This document shows positions 1,452 through 58,296 of a stretch of 64,000 bases of DNA, piece by piece. The notes under the pieces are model-generated. The model searched no databases and was not told the DNA's origin. It was given only the letters and a program-made list of their open reading frames with translations. Each line of letters begins with the position of its first letter. Position 1 is the first letter of the stretch. Both the position numbers and the translations under genes were made by a program. This DNA is from Candidatus Wolfebacteria bacterium RIFOXYD12_FULL_48_21 (GTDB lineage: Bacteria; Patescibacteriota; Minisyncoccia; UBA6257; UBA9933): positions 70,179 through 134,178 of the forward strand of contig MGIW01000006.1 in NCBI GenBank assembly GCA_001793945.1, in the 5' to 3' direction.

Positions 1452-1722
1452 AGAATGTCCTTGCTTGGCGAATTGCTGCGTTACGGGCCCCTCGCCCCTC
1501 GGTCACCGTACAGGTAGTACGCTTTCCTCGGTGCGTTTCCCGTGCCTTGCACTTCACTCAAGCAAAAACATTCCATAATAGTTCCGTGAATTCGGCGAAC
1601 TGCTGCGTTGCCTGCCTACCGGCAGGCGAGGCTCCGCCAGCCGGCGGATTCGGTCACCGTATGCATAATACGGCTTCCTCTCCAACCTCCCCGCGCCTTG
1701 CATTTCATCCGAATTCGCAAAA
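1452..1722. repeat. Two adjacent copies of a roughly 110-190 bp repeat family (gaattgctgcgtt...cgccttgcacttcactcaag)
   Basis: Copies at 1452-1565 and 1587-1722. A third copy lies at 62585-62775. Shared 5' block ggYgaaYtgctgcgttRc and shared 3' block gccttgcaYttcaY. Confidence 0.6.
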
Positions 1723-24756: not shown

Positions 24757-24851
24757 CATTGTCATCCCGATCCGCCAGCAGGCGGAGAGGGGTCTGTAGC
24801 AAAAAGCAGATTCCTCGGCTTCGAAGAGTACTTCTTCGCTCGAAATGACAG
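24757..24851. repeat. MITE-like element with GTCATCCCGA / TCGAAATGACAG inverted termini
   Basis: cattgtcatcccga...cagattcctcggcttcgaagagtacttcttcgctcgaaatgacag. Near-identical internal block at 56494-56581. Confidence 0.7.
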
Positions 24852-32298: not shown

Positions 32299-32302
32299 GG
32301 TT

Positions 32303-32378
32303 GTGTCATTCTGAACTTGTTTCAGAATCCCCCCTATTTGTACATGAGATTCCGAAACAAGTTCGGAATGACAATAAG
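32303..32378. repeat. Palindromic MITE-like element
   Basis: gtcattctgaacttgtttcagaatc ... gattccgaaacaagttcggaatgac. Confidence 0.7.
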
Positions 32379-32390
32379 ATATGTTTATCC

Positions 32391-33605
32391 ATGAAATTCA
32401 AATACCAAGCACGCAATAAGGATGGGGAACTGCAAGTCGGGTTCGTGGAATCATATTCGCAGGCGGGCGCTGCGGATGTTTTGGTTTCCCATAGTCTGTA
32501 TGTCCTTAGTCTTGAAAGTACGGATAAGGAAAATATTTTTGACAAATTTCTTGCCGCGTTCAAGCATATTTCACTAACCGATCTCATGATCTTTACGCGT
32601 CAATTTGCGACGCTCATGGAGGCAAAGGTTTCCCTTGGTGATTCCATGAAGAACCTGCAAAAGCAGACGCGTAGCCCGATGATGAAAGAAGTGATCCATG
32701 AGATCACATCCGACATCGACAGCGGTCTTGCCCTGTCACAGGCGTTTGAACGACAAAAGGATGTATTTTCGGAATTTTATGTCAGCATGATCCGGTCTGC
32801 CGAGATAACGGGGCGTTTGGAAGAAGCCGTTATTTATTTGGCCGCCTATATCGAAAAGCAAAAACTGTGGCGCTCTCGCATCATTAACGCGCTTATTTAT
32901 CCAATCATTTTAGTTGTCATGTTCTTGGGCATCGTGTTGCTTATGGTAACCATGGTCTTGCCGAACATTCGGCCGATCTTGCTTGAATCGGGCACCGCAT
33001 TGCCGTGGTATACGCAGGCTGTTTTGGTTGGGGGCGATTTCATCATCAACTGGTGGTGGGTCGTGATTCTTGCCGTCGTACCTTTGGTCATGTTCATTTT
33101 GGAATATGCCCGCAGTGAAGAGGGTAAGGTGGTTATCGACGAAGTGGTATTGCGCATGCCCGTGTTCGGAAACCTTTTTGCGAAAATGTACATTGCCCGG
33201 TTTGCGGAATCGTTGAGCATCTTGATCCAAGGAGGTATTCCTATCGCGCAAGCATTGGAGATCACTTCTCGATCGATTGGCAGTAATGTGTTCCATGAGA
33301 TATTGCACGAGGTCAGCGATCGGGTTCGCGGAGGCGAGCTGCTTTCCACTGCATTGGAGCAGTACGAATTTTACTTTCCTTCGTTGGTCAGTCAGATGAT
33401 CGCCATCGGCGAAACTACGGGGCGGCTCGATGAACTGCTCGGCCGCGTTGGTATATTCTACACGCGGGAGGTCGACGACATCATGGGTCGGCTTGGCGAG
33501 CTTATCCAGCCGCTCATCATCGCCATTATCGGTGTCTTTGTCGGATTCCTATTTGCATCCATACTCGTTCCGATATATAATTTAGTAAAGTCATTCAGTG
33601 CATAA
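32391..33605 (+). CDS. pilC: Type IV pilus inner-membrane platform protein PilC (GspF family)
   Basis: Two T2SSF repeats and three TM helices. Confidence 0.9.
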   Translation: MKFKYQARNKDGELQVGFVESYSQAGAADVLVSHSLYVLSLESTDKENIFDKFLAAFKHISLTDLMIFTRQFATLMEAKVSLGDSMKNLQKQTRSPMMKEVIHEITSDIDSGLALSQAFERQKDVFSEFYVSMIRSAEITGRLEEAVIYLAAYIEKQKLWRSRIINALIYPIILVVMFLGIVLLMVTMVLPNIRPILLESGTALPWYTQAVLVGGDFIINWWWVVILAVVPLVMFILEYARSEEGKVVIDEVVLRMPVFGNLFAKMYIARFAESLSILIQGGIPIAQALEITSRSIGSNVFHEILHEVSDRVRGGELLSTALEQYEFYFPSLVSQMIAIGETTGRLDELLGRVGIFYTREVDDIMGRLGELIQPLIIAIIGVFVGFLFASILVPIYNLVKSFSA

Positions 33606-33660
33606 TTAACCAACAACTAATAACCTGCGGCCGATAACAAATATCGGAGGATACTATTTT

Positions 33661-34155
33661 ATGAAAATACTACAATACAAAAAAGGCAGCGCCTTGATCC
33701 GTCAGGCGACGGAGAAAGGTTTTACTTTGGTCGAAATGCTTATCGTTATTGCTATCGTTGCCATTCTTGCATCGGTTGCGTTGGTAAGCGTGCGTGGCGT
33801 TCGTGAGGCGGCGGCCGACACCAAGCGCATTTCCGATTTGAGCAAAGTGCAAACATTGCTTGAGATCTATTATAATAAGCAAGGTACATATCCGAATGTA
33901 AGTACTTGGGACGCATTGGAGACCGAGCTGAAAGCAAAGAACATCACTGCTACCGATATTCCGCAGGACCCGCTTGGCGACACCCGCTCCTATGCATATG
34001 GCATTCAGCCCTCCACATTTCAACGCTATATTTTACGGGCTCAATTGTTGGATTCAGACCATAGAAATCTTACCGATGCCAACGAGATTGATACCACTGA
34101 ATACGGCGTTGATTGCAACGATACCAGCGGCTATTACTGTATAAGCTCGTTCTAA
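33661..34155 (+). CDS. Type IV pilin (prepilin)
   Basis: EKG|FTLVEMLIVIAIVAILASVALV. Confidence 0.8.
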   Translation: MKILQYKKGSALIRQATEKGFTLVEMLIVIAIVAILASVALVSVRGVREAAADTKRISDLSKVQTLLEIYYNKQGTYPNVSTWDALETELKAKNITATDIPQDPLGDTRSYAYGIQPSTFQRYILRAQLLDSDHRNLTDANEIDTTEYGVDCNDTSGYYCISSF

Positions 34156-34182
34156 CGGGTTCCCGTATGCCCATGCAAGCGC

Positions 34183-35109
34183 ATGGGCATATTTATATCT
34201 TTTGCCATTATGACATTTTTTTCCTATATACTTTTGGCGACGCTCGGGCTTATTATCGGAAGCTTTCTTAATGTTGCAACGCTGCGCTATGATCCTGATG
34301 GGGGATTTTTGAATATACGTTTATTTGGCGGTCGTTCTCATTGTCCGCGGTGTCGCGCGCAACTGGCGTGGTATGAGCTCATCCCCGTATTGAGTTATTT
34401 GTTTCTTTGGGGGCAATGCCGCCATTGCAAGCAGCACATATCGTTGCAGTATCCTATCGTAGAGCTTCTAACCGCCATTGTATTCGTTGCGATTCCTATG
34501 CGCATTGAATCGATGTCCTATATGCTATTTGCGGGCAGTGTCGGAGCGCTTTCCGTTGCGCATCTTTTGGTATCTGCGCTTTGGGTCGCAGTCTTTGTGT
34601 TGTTCATTGCATTGGCGGTCATAGATCTTCGCCACATGATCATTCCCGATTTTATTGCGATCGCCTTGGGCACTATCGGGGTCGTGCTTGCCGGTGTCAT
34701 GCAATGGTTTGGCGGGTTTTCCCCGTTGCGGGGTTCTTTTATGGGGCACTATGCCATGATTTTTGGGTTTCGCGAAAGCATTTGGGTTAACCATTTTTTT
34801 GCGGCGTTTGTTGGGCTTATATTTTTTGGGCTTATCATCGGCTTGAGTAGGGGGCGTGCGATGGGATGGGGAGACCTAAAGCTTGCGGGTGCATTGGGTC
34901 TTATCTTCGGATGGCCGGATATTGTGCTTGTGCTCATGCTCTCGTTCATTATCGGGTCCGTTGTGTCGGTTGGGCTTATGGTGCGCGGGCGCAAGACCAT
35001 GGGCGATGCGGTTCCATTTGGTCCGTTTTTGGTTATCGGCGCGGCAACCGTGTTCTTTTTCGGTTTCCGAATCATGTCGCTATATTTTGGTTCGTTCGGT
35101 GTTGTGTGA
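34183..35109 (+). CDS. pilD: Prepilin peptidase (A24 family)
   Basis: CPRCRA...CRHC zinc motif plus a multi-TM peptidase domain. Confidence 0.85.
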   Translation: MGIFISFAIMTFFSYILLATLGLIIGSFLNVATLRYDPDGGFLNIRLFGGRSHCPRCRAQLAWYELIPVLSYLFLWGQCRHCKQHISLQYPIVELLTAIVFVAIPMRIESMSYMLFAGSVGALSVAHLLVSALWVAVFVLFIALAVIDLRHMIIPDFIAIALGTIGVVLAGVMQWFGGFSPLRGSFMGHYAMIFGFRESIWVNHFFAAFVGLIFFGLIIGLSRGRAMGWGDLKLAGALGLIFGWPDIVLVLMLSFIIGSVVSVGLMVRGRKTMGDAVPFGPFLVIGAATVFFFGFRIMSLYFGSFGVV

Positions 35110-35120
35110 GTAGGGGGGCG

Positions 35121-35420
35121 CCAAGCAGAATCGCTGCAGGGGAACCCGCTCACGGATTTTGTGGGGCAAAATCCTGCGCTTCCGTTTGGGTTCCCCTGCA
35201 GCGATTTCGCTTGGCTTGAAGGGAGGGGAAGAGAAGGGAAGGGGCAGACAGAATCGCCATGCGGGAACCCGCTCACGTGTTACACACTGCTGTCCGCCGG
35301 CTGGCGGATTTAGGTTCCCATATTGTCATTCCTGTGAAAACAGGAATCTGAATTTCCGTCATCGCAAGGCGGAATGTTTCTCATATAGGCTTGCCATGCC
35401 TGCAGATCGCATATATACTT
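35121..35420. repeat. Cluster of palindromic MITE/REP-like elements, including a 28-bp-arm hairpin at 35121-35218
   Basis: gccaagcagaatcgctgcaggggaaccc ... gggttcccctgcagcgatttcgcttggc, followed by copies with the ccggctggcggat box and a gtcattcctgtgaaaacaggaat hairpin. Confidence 0.75.
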
Positions 35421-35539
35421 GAAATAGAAGGGTAGTATTGGGTTTAGTGTTAGCCACACAGTCGAGGTGGCTTGACAAAAATATTAAACCATGCTATTAA
35501 TTAAATCAGCAACTAACCAACTAATAAAGGAGAAAAACC

Positions 35540-36145
35540 ATGGAAGGATTCAACAGAAAGGCATTCGACGAAATGGTGGGCAAGGCACAAGAAGAGGCAT
35601 TAAAAGACAATGCCAAACTTGATAGCGCAAATGCGCTGATCAAAGAGATCAAGGGAGAAAAGGAAATTGCCGAGTCGAAAGAGCAATTCGAAACTTGGCA
35701 AACAATCGAATCTGGAGGGAAGTCAAAGGACGAGCTCATAAAAGAGCTTGAAGAAAAAGGAAGACTAATTGGCGCCGACGCCAACCATCTTCTTAAAAGT
35801 GAAGATTTCAAGACCTCCGAATCAAGGGAACATATTGATCTCGTAAGGCCGACCGTTAAAGATCTCGGGTTTGATAATGGTGCCACTACTGAAGAAATAT
35901 ACGCAAGAGCCGATGAATTGGGGTTGGATCTCTGTGAAGCTGAAGATGCTCCCAACTTAAGGGTCCAATATGATGGGACAGAAGGCATGGCGATCGCCAT
36001 GAAGCAGATTACCGGCTCTGGTGGCTTCCCGAGTGTGTTCTACCTGAGCAGCGATGACGACGACCTGTGGCTCGGCACGAACGGTGCGCGTCCCGGCATC
36101 AGGTGGAATGCTGACAATCGCTTTGTCTTCCGTCGGCGCAAGTAA
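35540..36145 (+). CDS. DGR target protein with a C-terminal variable region
   Basis: AAAGGAG Shine-Dalgarno. The C-terminal 45 aa is encoded by the VR. The tail reads DDDLWLGTNGARPGIRWNADNRFVFRRRK, which is CLec-fold-like. Confidence 0.8.
   Translation: MEGFNRKAFDEMVGKAQEEALKDNAKLDSANALIKEIKGEKEIAESKEQFETWQTIESGGKSKDELIKELEEKGRLIGADANHLLKSEDFKTSESREHIDLVRPTVKDLGFDNGATTEEIYARADELGLDLCEAEDAPNLRVQYDGTEGMAIAMKQITGSGGFPSVFYLSSDDDDLWLGTNGARPGIRWNADNRFVFRRRK
36008..36142 (+). repeat. DGR variable repeat (VR)
   Basis: 135-bp copy of the TR with 14 substitutions, all at TR adenines. Confidence 0.85.
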
Positions 36146-36208
36146 CTCTTGTGGACTTGTGCGCCTGTTATCTATTTGGGCACTTGGTCCCTTTGTTCCC
36201 TTGCATTT

Positions 36209-36233
36209 AAATCCCGCGCTTTGCGCGGGATTT
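36209..36233 (+). terminator. Perfect 11-bp-stem hairpin downstream of the VR and target stop
   Basis: aaatcccgcgc ttt gcgcgggattt. Confidence 0.45.
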
Positions 36234-36498
36234 GTATTATGGTACGATGATTGCGGTAGTAGGCTAATGATCCAATGCGGGCGATCAAGGTTTCCCGCGG
36301 CCGAATCCGGTATCCATGCGTCGAGAGTGCCTTCGTCCTCCGGCTGGCGGATTGAGACAGGGTGGCGCATGCAGAAACTCCATCAAAAATGAAGATACTT
36401 GGTATAAGATATTGGAGGAGTCTTGCTCCCAAATACTATACAGCCTTGAGTTTGCCAGCAAGCGATCGAGGGGCGGTGGAACGGATGATATCTTATAC

Positions 36499-36633
36499 AT
36501 TACCGACTCTGATGGCAACCCGAATGTGTTCAACCTGAACAGCAATGACGACGACCTGTGGCTCGACACGAACAATGCGCGTCCCGACAACAGGTGGAAT
36601 GCTGACAATCGCTTTGTCTTCCGTCGGCGCAAA
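36499..36633 (+). repeat. DGR template repeat (TR)
   Basis: Adenine-containing master copy, with AAC/AAT codons in the target frame. Embedded in a non-functional-looking ORF, 36316-36834. Confidence 0.85.
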
Positions 36634-36638
36634 CCTCT

Positions 36639-36953
36639 TTATTTCTCCTCCGGACTTGCGCCGGAGGAGTTTTTCTTTTCAATCTGGTGTTGCCACCCGC
36701 CGAGCATCTTGCCGATCTCATCTACGCATTTTGAAAGCGCAATGTATTTCTTACTATCAAGAACATTTATTTCCCACGCAAAGCGGAAAAAAAATTTTAG
36801 TTCGTCTATCTTGGCCCCGGCTTTTTGTAGGTGAGGCAATTTGAGTGCCTCTTTTTTCCAGCTGGCGGTAAACAGAAGTCCTGCCGTTTCGATAATAAGG
36901 CCGTCGATTTTTGTCCCCAATGTATAGCGTGAAGTTTTCGGGAATAGCTTCAC
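36639..36953 (-). CDS. avd: Avd-like accessory variability determinant (four-helix-bundle / 23S IVS protein family)
   Basis: FPKTSRYTLGTKIDGLIIETAGLLFTA and SKKYIALSKCVDEIGKMLGGW match the Avd/IVS pattern FPK.E.Y.L..QI.RAA.SI..NIAEG ... E.GKML. The ORF may extend upstream to about 37010 with a non-ATG start. Confidence 0.7.
   Translation of the reverse strand: MKLFPKTSRYTLGTKIDGLIIETAGLLFTASWKKEALKLPHLQKAGAKIDELKFFFRFAWEINVLDSKKYIALSKCVDEIGKMLGGWQHQIEKKNSSGASPEEK
36645..36679 (+). terminator. Plus-strand intrinsic terminator immediately 3' of the TR
   Basis: ctcctccgg acttgcg ccggaggag tttttctttt. Confidence 0.6.
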
Positions 36954-37013
36954 ATATTCTTGCCAGAGTTTGTACAGTGTGATAGTTTTGCTAATAATTG
37001 TTAAATTATTAGC

Positions 37014-37033
37014 GGGGGGGGGTAATTTTTTTT
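37014..37033. repeat. Homopolymeric G9 tract followed by a T8 tract in the avd-RT intergenic region
   Basis: agcgggggggggtaattttttttg, read directly. Confidence 0.8.
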
Positions 37034-37042
37034 GTTATTATT

Positions 37043-38071
37043 ATGAATGTCAAATTGAGTCATATATTTGAAGAGATAATTTCCGTCGATAATCTTTTGT
37101 TTGCATGGAAGGAATTCGAAAAGGGCAAGAAAAACAAAATCGATGTTTTAAAATTTTCGGAACGACTGATGGATAACATCTTATCATTGCATTACGATTT
37201 GGCAAGCAGAACATATGCGCATGGCGGGTATAAGGCATTTAAAATAAGCGATCCGAAGCCCCGCGATATCCATAAAGCGAGTGTGCTGGACAGATTGCTC
37301 CATCACGCCATATATAGAGTCGCATACCCCTATTTTGACAGGAAGTTCATCTGCGATTCTTATTCCTGCCGGAACGGGAAAGGAACACACAAAGCCATGA
37401 GTCGCTTTAAGCAATATCACAATGAAGTTTCCAAAAATAACACAAGAACCTGCTGGGTATTGAAATGTGACATTAGAAAGTTTTTTGCCAATATCGACCA
37501 TCAAATACTGAGGGATATTTTAGAAAAACATATAGAGGATGAGGATTTGATGTGGCTATTGGGAGAGGTTGTCGGGAGTTTTAATACCGAAGGGAAGACG
37601 GGCAAAGGGCTTCCGCTCGGGAACCTTACATCTCAGCTCTTAGTGAATATATACATGAATGAATTTGATCAGTATATGAAGCATGTATTGAAAGTAAAAT
37701 GGTATATCCGATATGCTGATGATTTTTGCATGCTATCTGGGAATAAAAAAGAATTGGAACAATTGTTGTCCCAAACAGGTGACATTCTGAAAGGAAAGCT
37801 GGAACTGGAGCTCCATCCCGATAAGGTTTCCATAAAAACATTTTCTTCCGGAGTTGATTTTCTTGGGTGGGTGCATTTCCCGGCTTATAGCGTCTTGCGA
37901 ACTTCCACCAAAAGGAGAATGATGGAAAGAATAAGAAAGCGCTTAAATGATGAAACGGTGGGTTCGTATTTGGGAATGCTGAAGCACGGGAACGGGCATT
38001 TAATACGCGAAGAAATAGTATCAATACAAAATGGCGCAAGCGGTTGGATACCCTCTGCCAATAAGGTATAA
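37043..38071 (+). CDS. DGR reverse transcriptase
   Basis: RT motifs present. PLGNLTSQ is the DGR-specific (I/L)GxxxSQ. YADDF active site. Confidence 0.9.
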   Translation: MNVKLSHIFEEIISVDNLLFAWKEFEKGKKNKIDVLKFSERLMDNILSLHYDLASRTYAHGGYKAFKISDPKPRDIHKASVLDRLLHHAIYRVAYPYFDRKFICDSYSCRNGKGTHKAMSRFKQYHNEVSKNNTRTCWVLKCDIRKFFANIDHQILRDILEKHIEDEDLMWLLGEVVGSFNTEGKTGKGLPLGNLTSQLLVNIYMNEFDQYMKHVLKVKWYIRYADDFCMLSGNKKELEQLLSQTGDILKGKLELELHPDKVSIKTFSSGVDFLGWVHFPAYSVLRTSTKRRMMERIRKRLNDETVGSYLGMLKHGNGHLIREEIVSIQNGASGWIPSANKV

Positions 38072-38078
38072 TGGTCAT

Positions 38079-38657
38079 ATGATGAACGGGAAACGCGTCG
38101 AAAAGCATGCGGCTATGAGAGGATTTACCTTGATCGAAACACTCGTTGTTATGAGCCTTGTTTTGATTTTGATCTCGATTGCGGCCATGTATAACAGAAA
38201 TGCCGGACGGCAGGTTTTGGTGGCTCGCGAACATGCAAAGGTGCTGACGACATTCGTGCGTGCGCGTTCTGCCGGACTTACCATTCCAAAGACCGACCCA
38301 AGTGTGGAACGCATTTGTGCCTATGGCGTGCATGTCGATTCTGCTGCGCGTACCATTATACTATTCAAGGATCTGGGCGAGCCGCTTCCCGGCTCCTGTG
38401 TTTCGGCGAATCATATATATGATGGCGACAGTGAGGCGCTTGAGCGAAGCGTGCTTGATGCCACGGTTAATATGGCCGCTACGAACATACAAGATGTCGT
38501 ATTCATTCCGCCTTCCGGTGAAGTGATTATTACCAACGAAGGGGGAACAGTCGTGCAATCGGCGACCGTAACGGTTGCCGGTGTTGAATCGGGGCTTTCC
38601 CGCGGCGTAAAAATAAATACATTCGGACAAATAACCGAGTTTGAGCCAATCCCATGA
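38079..38657 (+). CDS. Minor pilin / pseudopilin
   Basis: AAMRG|FTLIETLVVMSLVLILI prepilin motif. Confidence 0.7.
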   Translation: MMNGKRVEKHAAMRGFTLIETLVVMSLVLILISIAAMYNRNAGRQVLVAREHAKVLTTFVRARSAGLTIPKTDPSVERICAYGVHVDSAARTIILFKDLGEPLPGSCVSANHIYDGDSEALERSVLDATVNMAATNIQDVVFIPPSGEVIITNEGGTVVQSATVTVAGVESGLSRGVKINTFGQITEFEPIP

Positions 38658-39172
38658 AACAGCGCATATCCATACAATCGGGAGGATTTCTTCTTGTCGA
38701 AGCCATGGTATCTATGAGCGTATTGATGGTCGGCGTGCTTGGTATATTTGCGCTCATGTCCCAGTCGATCAAACTTACTCGAGTGATCAACGATCAATAT
38801 GTTTCCACCTATCTTGCGGCAGAGGGAATCGAAGTGGTAAAGAACATACTTGATTCAAATGCGCTTACCGATCCCGGCGCATGGAATGCCGGAGGGTTTG
38901 ATGCGGCTGCGTGCTACGAACTTGACTATACAACCGATGATATTGGCTCCGCGCTGTCGGCGTCGTGTTCGGGAAGCGGTGCTACGCCCTTGCTGTTCGA
39001 TGGCTCTGTTTATAGTTATGCGGGCGGAACGGCGAGCGGTTATTCGCGAACGGTGCAGATCGCTCCGATCATGGATGGCGCGCAGATCGGTGTGCGCGTG
39101 CGTTCCATTGTGCGTTGGGCCGGCGGAGAACAATCGTTTGCACTGGAGGACACATTTTATGCGTGGCATTGA
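38654..39172 (+). CDS. Minor pilin / pseudopilin
   Basis: QSGG|FLLVEAMVSMSVLMV. Confidence 0.7.
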   Translation: MKQRISIQSGGFLLVEAMVSMSVLMVGVLGIFALMSQSIKLTRVINDQYVSTYLAAEGIEVVKNILDSNALTDPGAWNAGGFDAAACYELDYTTDDIGSALSASCSGSGATPLLFDGSVYSYAGGTASGYSRTVQIAPIMDGAQIGVRVRSIVRWAGGEQSFALEDTFYAWH

Positions 39173-39183
39173 TCATGACTATG

Positions 39184-39846
39184 GCATGTAAACAAAAACA
39201 AAAAATGCAAAGAGGATTCACCTTGATCGAACTGATCGTCGCATTCGGTATTTTTGCCATTCTGATCACTATTGCCTCCGGGAGTTTTGTGCGTTCGTTG
39301 CGCATTCAGCGGGTTTCGTTGCAGCTCATGGCGGTCAACGACAATATGGCAATAACTCTGGAACAGATGATGCGCGAGATGCGGACCGGGTATAACTTTT
39401 GCACCAACACGGAAAATCTTTCTGCTGCCGATCCTTCCGTGCAGGCGCAATGCGCCGCACTGGACAACGGAGAGATTCAATTCGTGACCGCCGGCAATGT
39501 TTTGGTGCGGTATCGCTTGAAAAACGAGGCCATTCAAAAGGGTGTTGGCGTTGCCGCATGGGATCCGGCAAATCCGCCTGAAACGGCTTGCGACGAGGGT
39601 GAGTTTGATGCGACCAGCGGTGTTTGTTATCGCACTATGACCGCGGATACGATCAAGGTCTCTGATGCCAATTTTCGTGCGTTGCACAACGATGTGGAAG
39701 TTTCTCCGTTGTATCCACCGCGCATCGTGCTGAGTTTTGCTGTTACCAGCAGCGATCCTTTGGTCGAGGCGTTTGCGAGTCCCATTACCATTCAAACGAC
39801 AGTGAGTGCGCGGTGTGGGGTTAGCTCGTGCCCCTCCGACTCGTAA
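39184..39846 (+). CDS. Minor pilin (PilW/GspJ-like)
   Basis: MQRG|FTLIELIVAFGIFAILI. Start ambiguous between 39184 and 39208. Confidence 0.65.
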   Translation, partial: ACKQKQKMQRGFTLIELIVAFGIFAILITIASGSFVRSLRIQRVSLQLMAVNDNMAITLEQMMREMRTGYNFCTNTENLSAADPSVQAQCAALDNGEIQFVTAGNVLVRYRLKNEAIQKGVGVAAWDPANPPETACDEGEFDATSGVCYRTMTADTIKVSDANFRALHNDVEVSPLYPPRIVLSFAVTSSDPLVEAFASPITIQTTVSARCGVSSCPSDS

Positions 39847-39961
39847 TAGGATGGTTCACGGTTGACGGCTCATAGTTTACGGGCGGAAGCAGTTGGTGCA
39901 TTTAGTCGACTGTGAACCGTAAACTGTTAATGGTTATCGAAGAATAAACAGTCTAAATACA

Positions 39962-40363
39962 ATGCAATCGTTTATGAAGCGACCTAACATAAAAAAATAT
40001 ACCCAACGGGGGCAGGCTATGATCCTGACGGTGCTCGTGTTGTCGAGCATCGTGCTTTCGTTGTCATCCATCGGCGGGTATTTGATGCTGGTCCGCTTGC
40101 GCATCAGTTCCGATATCGGCAATACCATGCGCGCCATTTACATTGCCGATGCGGGGCTTGAGTGTGAAGCATATAACCATTTCAAAAATAGCGATGCGGC
40201 GGGATTTTGTGCTGATGCCGCCCGAAATGCTTTTCTGTCCGGTGAAGTTGATGATACGGCGCGTTTTTATTATGAAACGGTCTATGTATCTGCTGCACCT
40301 TCGTATATTCGTTCCATTGGAACTGCTCGGAATGTAAACCGGTCGTTCCGGCTTGATTTCTGA
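39962..40363 (+). CDS. PilX-like pilus-associated protein
   Basis: N-terminal hydrophobic helix. Last gene of the minor-pilin cluster. Confidence 0.4.
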   Translation: MQSFMKRPNIKKYTQRGQAMILTVLVLSSIVLSLSSIGGYLMLVRLRISSDIGNTMRAIYIADAGLECEAYNHFKNSDAAGFCADAARNAFLSGEVDDTARFYYETVYVSAAPSYIRSIGTARNVNRSFRLDF

Positions 40364-58130: not shown

Positions 58131-58296
58131 TACGGGTCCGCCAGCCGGCGGATCCGGCGGGAATCTGGGGCCTGTGTCATTCCGGCGGAGGCCGGAATCC
58201 ATTTCAACCTCGTGCGGAACGCACAATTATAGATGCGCGTGTCGCGCAAAGGTGGAAGTGGATCCCGGGTTAAGCCCGGGATGACAATCTTCTGTG
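58131..58296. repeat. Cluster of MITE/REP-like palindromes
   Basis: gtccgccagccggcggatccggcgggaat..., tgtcattccggcggaggccggaatcc and gatcccgggttaagcccgggatgacaatc. Confidence 0.65.

What the first reader, a model, noticed from the sequence alone, without database searches (positions are those of the whole stretch)
35540..38071. Complete diversity-generating retroelement with an adenine-specific VR/TR pair
Two 135-bp repeats at 36008-36142 and 36499-36633 differ at exactly 14 positions. In every case the second copy has A and the first has G or T. No non-adenine differences occur. Adenine-specific template-to-variable-repeat mutagenesis is the defining signature of DGRs. The first copy forms the 3' end of a 201-aa ORF, with a CLec-fold-like tail ...RWNADNRFVFRRRK. 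Downstream lie an Avd-like four-helix-bundle ORF and a reverse transcriptase with the DGR-specific LGNLTSQ and YADD motifs.
Basis: partly seen in the sequence, partly recalled or inferred. Interest (0 to 1): 0.85.

Follow-up and report, generated by a model that had tools for sequence, protein, structure and literature searches.

The report
CPR-type diversity-generating retroelement, confirmed
This is a genuine, complete diversity-generating retroelement of the kind already known from ultra-small CPR bacteria, and comparing about 40 relatives shows that its template sits in its own small RNA gene behind a large conserved folded RNA domain that I could not find described.

Summary

New here, across about 40 CPR loci:
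- A covarying RNA domain of about 245 nt lies directly 5' of TR, with its own -10 box.
- A 12-bp helix ends at the base before TR.
- A hairpin plus U-run follows TR.
- A conserved G8-G12 run lies between avd and RT.
- A periodic CTT(T)G array follows VR.

The parts
35540..36145 (+). Target gene (201 aa): N-terminal long helix followed by an alpha/beta domain of about 150 aa that ends in VR. No signal peptide or transmembrane segment is evident.
36008..36142 (+). Variable repeat (VR), the last 45 codons of the target.
36118..36145 (+). IMH-like 3' end of VR (CGCTTTGTCTTCCGTCGGCGCAAG-TAA). The TR counterpart ends AAA-CCT.
   Evidence: This G+C-rich stretch is invariant in the window, L001 and L002. 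The AAG/AAA difference is fixed in all three.
36146..36205 (+). Periodic CTT(T)G array just after the target stop codon. Function unknown.
   Evidence: CTT is 3.3-fold enriched in the 65 nt after VR in 36 loci, with a dominant spacing of 7-8 nt.
36208..36234 (+). Terminator-like hairpin of the target gene (TAAATCCCGCGC-TTT-GCGCGGGATTTG).
   Evidence: A hairpin with a T-rich tail is seen 8-93 nt after VR in most related loci.
36240..36248 (+). Extended -10-like box (TGgTACGAT), about 7 nt before the conserved RNA start.
   Evidence: Read from the sequence. TAnAnT-type boxes occupy the same place in the related spacers. This is an inference; there are no transcript data.
36255..36404 (+). 5' RNA domain A (begins GGUAGUAGG): 38 pairs in 5 helices in the model tested.
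   Evidence: Alignment A6 of 15 loci: 38 pairs, 95.8% paired against 37-49% when slid, 93 double-sided changes.
36393..36501 (+). 5' RNA domain B. A 12-bp closing helix P1 (36402-36413 with 36487-36498) encloses two hairpins and conserved strands (AAUAAGAUUCA, GGUGGUGG, GAUGG). P1 ends at the base before TR.
   Evidence: Alignment A5 of 36 loci: 94.2% paired against 31-54% when slid, 227 double-sided changes. Covariance model R1 gives one hit in the window (81 bits, E 5e-15) and one per CPR DGR locus.
36499..36633 (+). Template repeat (TR).
   Evidence: TR is 135/135 identical in L001.
36645..36679 (+). 9-bp hairpin (CTCCTCCGG/CCGGAGGAG) followed by TTTTTCTTTT, 11 nt after TR. It looks like an intrinsic terminator and sits where Handa et al. 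place the Avd-binding stem-loop. It lies antisense to the last avd codons.
   Evidence: top-listed terminator-like site. By my reading of the listings, a hairpin plus T-run is present in nearly all of 37 loci, with different stem sequences. Interpretation follows bioRxiv 10.1101/2023.10.23.563531.
36639..36998 (-). avd. The conserved Avd core starts at the ATT codon at 36998. The only canonical in-frame start is the GTG at 36953, which would remove helix 1.
   Evidence: The region upstream of the GTG is conserved with synonymous changes in L002. Start-codon survey.
37014..37022 (.). G9 homopolymer between the divergent avd and RT genes (C9 on the avd strand, read as PPP in the Avd frame).
   Evidence: It is G8 in L001 and G9 in L002. 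A run of G7-G12 (G8 or longer in about 30) occupies the same place in most related loci, and (GA)n in 4.
37043..38071 (+). DGR reverse transcriptase (342 aa) with LGNLTSQ and YADD.

Best explanation
This is a chromosomal diversity-generating retroelement of the CPR-restricted lineage (Roux et al. clade 2; Wu et al. architecture B3) in a Candidatus Wolfebacteria genome.

Shown by the sequence:
- TR (36499-36633) is a non-coding copy of the last 45 codons of a 201-aa target gene.
- VR differs from TR only at TR adenines.
- Those adenines lie at codon positions 1-2, mostly in AAY codons, so about 10^20 protein variants are possible without creating stop codons.
- A DGR-type RT and an Avd are encoded next to TR.

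Shown by comparison:
- In a contig with an identical TR and an almost identical spacer, avd and RT, the VR differs from the window's at 18 positions. Its own VR departs from the shared TR only at adenines plus one G>T, so mutagenic homing acted recently in this lineage.
- TR is preceded by a covarying structured RNA of about 245 nt, followed by a hairpin and U-run, and preceded by a -10-like box.

Inferred:
- TR is transcribed as its own RNA of about 425 nt (roughly 36255-36680).
- RT-Avd binds this RNA. The hairpin after TR is the counterpart of the Avd-binding stem-loop.
- cDNA synthesis starts at the TR 3' end, with misincorporation opposite A.
- It stops at the 12-bp helix that abuts the TR 5' end, which would play the role of the Bordetella 'cPRT Stop' duplex.
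- The cDNA replaces VR, with the G+C-rich IMH-like end marking the 3' limit.
- The diversified face is a divergent C-type-lectin-like domain of a probably non-secreted protein whose ligand is unknown.
For: - TR/VR: 14/14 differences at TR adenines, p about 1e-9; 35/36 adenines at codon positions 1-2; 10 AAY codons.
- RT: best PDB match is bRT 8ub7 at 2.3e-39; the motifs are present in the translation; PHROG RT at 1.7e-105.
- Avd.
- Organism: named.
- Relatives: about 40 related CPR loci share the order target-VR, TR, avd(-), RT(+), each with an A-biased repeat pair. This matches the B3 architecture reported for 90% of CPR DGRs (PMC5758913) and the CPR clade 2 (PMC8144416).
- Activity: the L001 TR is 135/135 identical and its VR differs from that TR at 11 adenines plus one G>T. 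The window and L001 differ at 18 VR positions, against 3 differences in 36146-37988.
- RNA.
- Hairpin and U-run after TR.
- Fold.
Against: - No transcript, cDNA or read-level data are available.
- All 23 contigs read that encode exactly this target protein necessarily share its VR, and the six retrieved show no other polymorphism. Ongoing activity in this population is therefore not shown.
- In the assembled state (G9), avd has no canonical in-frame start codon upstream of its conserved helix 1. The element could be switched off here.
- The priming site and the true RNA ends are unknown. If transcription reads through the U-run, RNA antisense to avd could still act as a Bordetella-like spacer.
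Confidence: 0.9

Rival explanations
1. The cassette is a DGR that is silent or decaying in this genome. Avd cannot be translated from the assembled G9 state, so the TR/VR differences are a record of past activity only.
For: There is no ATG, GTG or TTG in the Avd frame between the upstream stop and helix 1. The nearest upstream ATG ORF (MTQFDIHNNNKKN) is out of frame. The six retrieved contigs that encode this exact target protein show no other polymorphism, and the five that cover the tract all have G9.
Against: The Avd and RT bodies are intact and conserved, with synonymous or conservative changes in L002. The same lack of a canonical start recurs in many otherwise intact loci. That pattern points to a regulated or unusual start (tract slippage, frameshifting, or an ATT start) rather than decay. 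VR turnover relative to L001 is recent.
Confidence: 0.2
2. The two repeats are an ordinary segmental duplication or gene-conversion tract beside an unrelated retroelement RT (group II intron, retron or defence RT).
For: The NCBIfam models that match the RT are group II intron, Drt and retron models, all far below their cut-offs. No DGR RT model appeared among those hits.
Against: Adenine-only differences have p about 1e-9 and avoid third codon positions. bRT is the closest solved RT by 20 orders of magnitude. Avd lies adjacent. There is no group II intron or retron RNA match in Rfam. Forty homologous RT loci all carry A-biased TR/VR pairs.
Confidence: 0.01
3. The conserved sequence between VR and TR is not an RNA domain of the DGR. 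It could be a protein-coding or DNA-level element (for example a promoter or regulator region) that merely travels with the cassette.
For: No transcript data exist. Folding the single sequence of 36146-36700 is not better than shuffles (z -1.06). ORFs overlap the region.
Against: There are 59 base pairs with 94-96% pairing, and 320 double-sided compensatory cells, against about 30-54% pairing when partners are slid. Helix P1 keeps 10-12 of 12 pairs (11 or 12 in all but one locus) in 36 loci with quite different sequences. The element is always on the TR/RT strand and ends at the TR start. The overlapping ORFs have no family match.
Confidence: 0.07

Closest known systems
CPR (Patescibacteria) DGRs: DGR clade 2 of Roux et al. 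2021 (PMC8144416) and architecture B3 of Wu et al. 2018 (PMC5758913); first surveyed by Paul et al. 2017 (not readable here)
   Same: The host group, the gene order target/VR - TR - avd - RT, a small target with no recognisable domain or membrane anchor, long relatives with a PcfJ-like N-terminal domain, and a VR class not assignable by sequence.
   Different: Nothing at the level of genes. The papers I could read do not mention the covarying 5' RNA domain, the TR terminator hairpin as part of a separate transcription unit, the G-run, or the CTT(T)G array.
Bordetella phage BPP-1 DGR (mtd-avd-TR-brt), including the bRT-Avd-RNA particle (PDB 8ub7 series; bioRxiv 10.1101/2023.10.23.563531)
   Same: An RT with 2e-39 similarity and the same motifs. 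An Avd. Adenine-specific TR to VR transfer. A G+C-rich IMH-like end. A stem-loop of about 9 bp just 3' of TR. A duplex bounding the TR 5' end.
   Different: In BPP-1 the essential structured RNA (the 140-nt spacer with the priming adenosine) lies 3' of TR and runs into brt, and avd lies upstream on the same strand. Here, 3' of TR there are only 11 nt, a hairpin and a U-run, then avd in antisense. The large conserved structure lies 5' of TR, and the bounding duplex is made of two upstream strands. The Rfam scans of this region gave no significant match to any family. Weinberg et al. 2017 place their RT-10 motif in the BPP-1 spacer.
DGR variable proteins with a C-type lectin fold (Mtd, TvpA 2y3c, archaeal AvpA, TaqVP)
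   Different: There is no sequence similarity, the scores are low, and no Foldseek match is significant. The target also has a long N-terminal helix and no export signal.
Simple-sequence contingency loci (poly-G tracts of Campylobacter or Neisseria)
   Same: An uninterrupted G8-G12 run, or (GA)n, in or just before the 5' coding part of avd. A G8/G9 difference between two nearly identical cassettes.
   Different: No population-level length variation has been seen (G9 in all five same-site contigs that cover the tract). The run could instead be an RT ribosome-binding or promoter element, or a frameshift site.

Membership tests
Diversity-generating retroelement | Two near-identical repeats whose differences fall at adenines of the template copy | tested here: met
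   14/14 differences at TR adenines, p about 1e-9. The same holds in L001 (11 A + 1 other) and L002 (19 A + 1 other).
Diversity-generating retroelement | RT of the DGR clade (motif 4 [LIV]GxxxSQ, YxDD) | tested here: met
   LGNLTSQ and YADD are in the translation. The best solved relative is bRT at 2.3e-39. No RT phylogeny was built.
Diversity-generating retroelement | VR inside a protein-coding target, TR non-coding, and TR adenines placed at codon positions 1-2 (AAY) | tested here: met
   VR is the last 45 codons of ORF 35540-36145. 35/36 adenines are at positions 1-2, with 10 AAY codons.
Diversity-generating retroelement | Accessory protein Avd | tested here: met
   PF22296 at 2e-13; NF033474 at 71 bits (below the curated 80); PHROG 'Avd protein of DGR' at 1.4e-19. 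The start codon is unresolved.
Diversity-generating retroelement | IMH at the VR 3' end with a non-identical IMH* at the TR 3' end | tested here: inconclusive
   There is a G+C-rich invariant end, with a fixed AAG/AAA difference and divergence beyond it. No functional definition of IMH is available for this clade.
Diversity-generating retroelement | Mutagenic homing actually occurs | tested here: inconclusive
   VR-only divergence between cassettes that are otherwise 99.9% identical supports past activity. No read or experimental data are available.
CPR DGR lineage (architecture B3 / clade 2) | CPR host and the order target-TR-avd-RT | tested here: met
   The host is named. The order and the minus-strand avd are shared by about 40 CPR loci with 46-66% RT identity. 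I could not see Wu et al.'s Figure 5, so equating this order with 'B3' rests on their text.
Bordetella-type DGR RNA (avd 3' end - TR - 140-nt spacer) | Structured spacer RNA 3' of TR, between TR and RT on the same strand | tested here: not met
   TR is followed by 11 nt, a hairpin and a U-run, and then by avd on the opposite strand. No significant Rfam match.
Bordetella-type DGR RNA (avd 3' end - TR - 140-nt spacer) | Avd-binding stem-loop just 3' of TR | tested here: met
   A 9-bp stem lies 11 nt after TR. By my reading it is conserved in place, with changing sequence, in nearly all of 37 loci. The feature is defined. Binding was not tested.
C-type lectin fold DGR targets | CLec fold with VR on the ligand-binding face | tested here: inconclusive

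The most novel reading that the evidence does not exclude
In the CPR DGR lineage the functional DGR RNA is arranged differently from the Bordetella paradigm. TR would be made as a self-contained RNA of about 425 nt, with its own promoter and terminator. The large protein-binding and positioning structure would lie 5' of the template rather than 3'. A 12-bp helix made of two upstream strands would set the stop point of reverse transcription. In addition, Avd supply, and hence mutagenesis, may be gated by a conserved G8-G12 or (GA)n tract, through phase variation or frameshifting. As far as I could check, neither feature is described.
Probability: 0.45. Interest if true: 0.65.

Novelty: new member of a known kind. 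Interest (0 to 1): 0.45.

Why it matters
The DGR itself is ordinary for CPR bacteria, where such elements are known to be enriched. Its value is as a clean, complete example with comparative evidence of recent VR turnover.

The clade-wide features found on the way are what could matter. A covariance-supported RNA domain upstream of TR gives a concrete, testable model of how an RT-Avd complex recognises its template in the largest cellular DGR lineage. For that lineage the Bordetella spacer model cannot apply as it stands. The domain also gives a sensitive marker (model R1) for finding TRs.

A simple-sequence tract at the avd start, if it switches Avd on and off, would mean a hypermutation system that is itself under stochastic control.

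The target family (more than 5000 clusters, no annotation) is a large set of diversified proteins of unknown ligand in organisms that depend on other cells.

Tried and rejected
- Rfam at gathering threshold on the whole window, and at E<=5 on 35100-37100, gave only two tRNAs elsewhere and chance hits.
- Folding 36146-36700 as a single sequence was not better than shuffles (z -1.06). The structure emerged only from comparison.
- A scan for further VRs with an A-tolerant match found none.
- Pfam, NCBIfam, PHROGs, PDB sequences and an 84-sequence profile against PDB all found nothing for the target.
- Foldseek against PDB gave nothing significant.
- I first suspected the palindrome CCNCCGGCTGGCGGATT (35294 and 36337) of being a DGR signal. 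I rejected this because it occurs at five places in the window. In L002 the same RNA hairpin position holds an unrelated stem. It is simply the variable hairpin of domain A here, or a dispersed palindrome.
- I looked for G-run length variation among contigs that carry the identical target. Five of the six retrieved cover the tract, and all have G9. The apparent differences in L053 are a scaffold gap of Ns.
- The RT scan of IMG/VR viral contigs found no relatives.
- Paul et al. 2017 and the supplement of Wu et al. could not be read. I therefore could not check whether this exact locus, or the RNA domain, is already listed.
Full report
**Observation.** Repeats 36008-36142 and 36499-36633 were found independently by the repeat finder. 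An ungapped comparison gives 14 differences in 135 nt. All 14 have A in the second copy, with G (10) or T (4) in the first. TR has 36 adenines, so the chance that 14 random positions all fall on A is 1.0e-9. Thirteen differences are at codon positions 1 or 2 of ORF 35540-36145. The fourteenth (AAA in TR, AAG-TAA in VR) is the last base before homology ends, and it is the same in two related loci. I read it as a fixed boundary (IMH/IMH*) difference. Of the 36 TR adenines, 35 are at codon positions 1-2, ten codons are AAY, and no stop can arise except at the boundary codon. About 10^20.8 protein variants are possible. No other VR-like copy exists in the window.

**Genes.** The RT (37043-38071) matches RVT_1. 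Its best solved relative is Bordetella bRT (8ub7, 2.3e-39). Group II intron RTs come next at 1e-19. LGNLTSQ and YADD are present, and PHROG 1423 matches at 1.7e-105.

Avd is real but lies on the minus strand. The listed ORF (GTG 36953) matches only from position 19-20 of the Avd profiles. Adding the 15 in-frame residues upstream (IISKTITLYKLWQEY) extends the match to profile position 3, and the 137-aa L001 form reaches position 1. Those codons are conserved in L002 with synonymous or conservative changes. No ATG, GTG or TTG lies in that frame after the preceding stop.

The target has no match in Pfam, NCBIfam, PHROGs or PDB sequences.

**Origin and relatives.** The target protein is identical to a hypothetical protein of Candidatus Wolfebacteria bacterium RIFOXYD12_FULL_48_21. 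A scan of species-representative genomes with the RT gave 48 loci, nearly all CPR, at 46-66% identity. In about 40 of them an A-biased repeat pair lies in the same layout: VR is 240-440 nt upstream of TR, and TR ends about 400 nt before the RT. In between, Avd is always on the opposite strand. This agrees with the text of Wu et al. that architecture B3 accounts for 90% of CPR DGRs (PMC5758913). It also agrees with Roux et al.'s CPR-restricted clade 2, whose targets lack recognisable domains (PMC8144416). No relative was found in IMG/VR.

**Activity.** Contig L001 (JGI 3300009285) matches the window at 97.5% over 35157-37999. Between 36146 and 37988 (spacer, TR, avd, RT) there are only 3 differences, one of them the G-run length. 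The VR has 18. The L001 TR is 135/135 identical to the window's, and its VR differs from that TR at 11 adenines plus one G>T. L002 shows 19 adenine differences plus one G>C. This is the pattern expected of repeated mutagenic homing on a fixed template. It does not show activity in the window's own population. The six retrieved contigs that encode this exact target protein show no other polymorphism.

**The TR transcription unit.** The VR-TR spacer is 92% identical between the window and L002, against 83% for the whole cassette. Laid side by side, the spacers of 37 loci share an ordered set of blocks.

- *Domain B.* I aligned the 100-115 nt before TR from 36 loci (A5). RNAalifold and explicit counting support a 12-bp helix P1 closing two hairpins. 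Pairing is 94.2% of cells, against 31-54% when partners are slid, with 227 double-sided changes (63.5 expected from shuffles), and 18 of 21 pairs covary. In every locus the two P1 arms pair at 10-12 of 12 positions (11 or 12 in all but one), although their sequences differ widely. One caveat applies: I trimmed the 3' ends using complementarity. The register, however, is fixed by the conserved flanks GAUGG and ACA, and MAFFT made the alignment.
- *Domain A.* The upstream half (A6, 15 loci) gives 38 pairs, 95.8% paired against 37-49% when slid, and 93 double-sided changes.
- *Specificity.* A covariance model of domain B finds one hit in the 64-kb window (36393-36501, 81 bits; the next is 13 bits). 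It finds exactly one hit, on the RT strand and ending at the TR start, in each of 40 CPR loci. These include four that were not used to build it (L037, L039, L040, L041). It finds none in the Bacteroidales DGR loci.
- *Position in the window.* P1 is 36402-36413 with 36487-36498, so it ends at the base before TR. An extended -10-like box (TGgTACGAT, 36240-36248) lies about 7 nt before the conserved GGUAGUAGG (36255). Similar boxes sit in the same place in the other loci.
- *After TR.* An 11-nt linker is followed by a 9-bp hairpin and TTTTTCTTTT (36645-36679). This is the top-listed terminator-like site in the region. By my reading of the listings, a hairpin plus T-run recurs in nearly all of 37 loci, with different stem sequences.

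**Comparison with Bordetella.** Handa et al. report that bRT-Avd needs RNA on both sides of TR. They describe an Avd-binding stem-loop (typically 9 bp) just 3' of TR, a 'cPRT Stop' duplex, and further elements spread over the 140-nt spacer, which also supplies the priming adenosine. Their survey of other DGRs, CPR included, used only 40 nt upstream and 100 nt downstream of TR (bioRxiv 10.1101/2023.10.23.563531). Here the stem-loop 3' of TR is present, but a U-run follows it, and then avd in antisense. The large conserved structure lies 5' of TR. The duplex bounding the TR 5' end is made of two upstream strands about 85 nt apart, outside the window they examined. I therefore infer a rearranged DGR RNA, made as its own unit of about 425 nt. 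The priming site is unknown, and read-through past the U-run is not excluded. Weinberg et al.'s RT motifs include one for the BPP-1 spacer (PMC5737381), but the Rfam scans gave no significant match here. I found no description of this domain in the papers I could search or read. Paul et al. 2017 was not available.

**Other conserved features.**
- *Homopurine tract.* A G9 run (37014-37022) lies between avd and RT. It is G8 in L001, the only indel in 1.84 kb. A run of G7-G12 (G8 or longer in about 30) occupies the same place in most related loci, and (GA)n occupies it in four. In the Avd frame it reads PPP or SLSL. It is a strict homopolymer with no synonymous codon variation, and a dinucleotide repeat can replace it, so the constraint acts on the nucleotides. 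In about nine or ten loci, including the window, there is no canonical start in the Avd frame. The nearest upstream ATG ORF is in frame in only about a third of loci. Phase variation, slippage or frameshifting on the run, an ATT start, or a role as the RT ribosome-binding or promoter element all remain possible. The upstream ATG is antisense to a His codon near the RT N-terminus, so its conservation may be incidental.
- *CTT array.* The 65 nt after VR are enriched 3.3-fold in CTT, with a 7-8 nt spacing, across 36 loci. I have no explanation for this.

**Context.** The cassette sits inside a type IV pilus gene cluster. PilC-like, pilin and prepilin peptidase genes lie upstream, and N-methyl pseudopilins lie downstream. 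In L001, homology stops at 37999, inside the RT C-terminus, and a glycosyltransferase follows. The cassette therefore occurs in different surroundings.

**Verdict.** It belongs to a lineage and architecture already described, so it is a new member of a known kind. The comparative by-products are the parts worth following up: the 5' RNA domain, the separate TR unit, the homopurine tract at the avd start, and the CTT array.

Noticed in passing
window 37014-37022 (and the same place in L001-L042): An uninterrupted G9 run lies between the divergent avd and RT genes. It is G8 in the near-identical L001. A G7-G12 run (G8 or longer in about 30) occupies this place in most CPR DGR loci, and (GA)n replaces it in 4. 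It lies 11-30 nt 5' of the conserved Avd core and reads PPP in that frame. It could be a phase-variation or frameshift switch for Avd, or an RT ribosome-binding or promoter element.
   Followed up: partly
window 36953-37076, minus strand: avd has no ATG, GTG or TTG upstream of its conserved first helix in the assembled frame. The nearest upstream ATG ORF (MTQFDIHNNNKKN, antisense to the first RT codons) is out of frame with G9. The same problem recurs in about nine or ten related loci (L002, L009, L015, L018, L021, L025, L035, L036 among them).
   Followed up: partly
window 36146-36205; first 65 nt after VR in 36 loci: A periodic CTT(T)G array starts right after the target stop codon. Spacing is 7-8 nt and CTT is 3.3-fold enriched over the locus background. 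It is conserved as a pattern rather than as a sequence. Function unknown.
   Followed up: partly
window 35692-35899 compared with L001 536-743: A 208-nt patch inside the target gene (residues about 51-120) carries 43 differences that are not adenine-specific. The flanks are almost identical. It looks like a recombination mosaic in the non-VR part of the target.
   Followed up: no
window 1631-1650, 24769-24785, 35294-35310, 36337-36353, 58135-58151: The palindrome CCGCC(N)GC(N)GGCGG occurs at five places (6 strand matches; 0.03 expected). One copy forms the variable hairpin of RNA domain A, and one lies 230 nt upstream of the target gene. It is also seen in L001, L011, L026 and L029. It may be a dispersed REP-like element.
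   Followed up: partly
window 35108-35277: Between the prepilin peptidase gene and the DGR target there is a 28-nt inverted repeat (35120-35147 / 35188-35215, 93% complementary) and a 47-nt direct repeat (35108-35154 / 35231-35277, 74%). The Rfam match there is only weak and probably chance. Unexplained.
   Followed up: no
window 37999-38071 and 38031-38657: Homology with L001 ends at 37999, so the last ~24 RT residues differ between the two cassettes. In the window, the RT 3' end overlaps the listed ORF 38031-38657, a pseudopilin (N_methyl) gene. L001 has a glycosyltransferase here instead. The cassette junction therefore lies inside the RT C-terminus.
   Followed up: partly
window 32301-35109 and 38031-40363: The DGR sits inside a type IV pilus/pseudopilin gene cluster (T2SSF/PilC-like, pilin, prepilin peptidase, several N-methyl proteins). 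Whether the diversified protein has anything to do with the pilus is unknown. The target has no prepilin leader.
   Followed up: no
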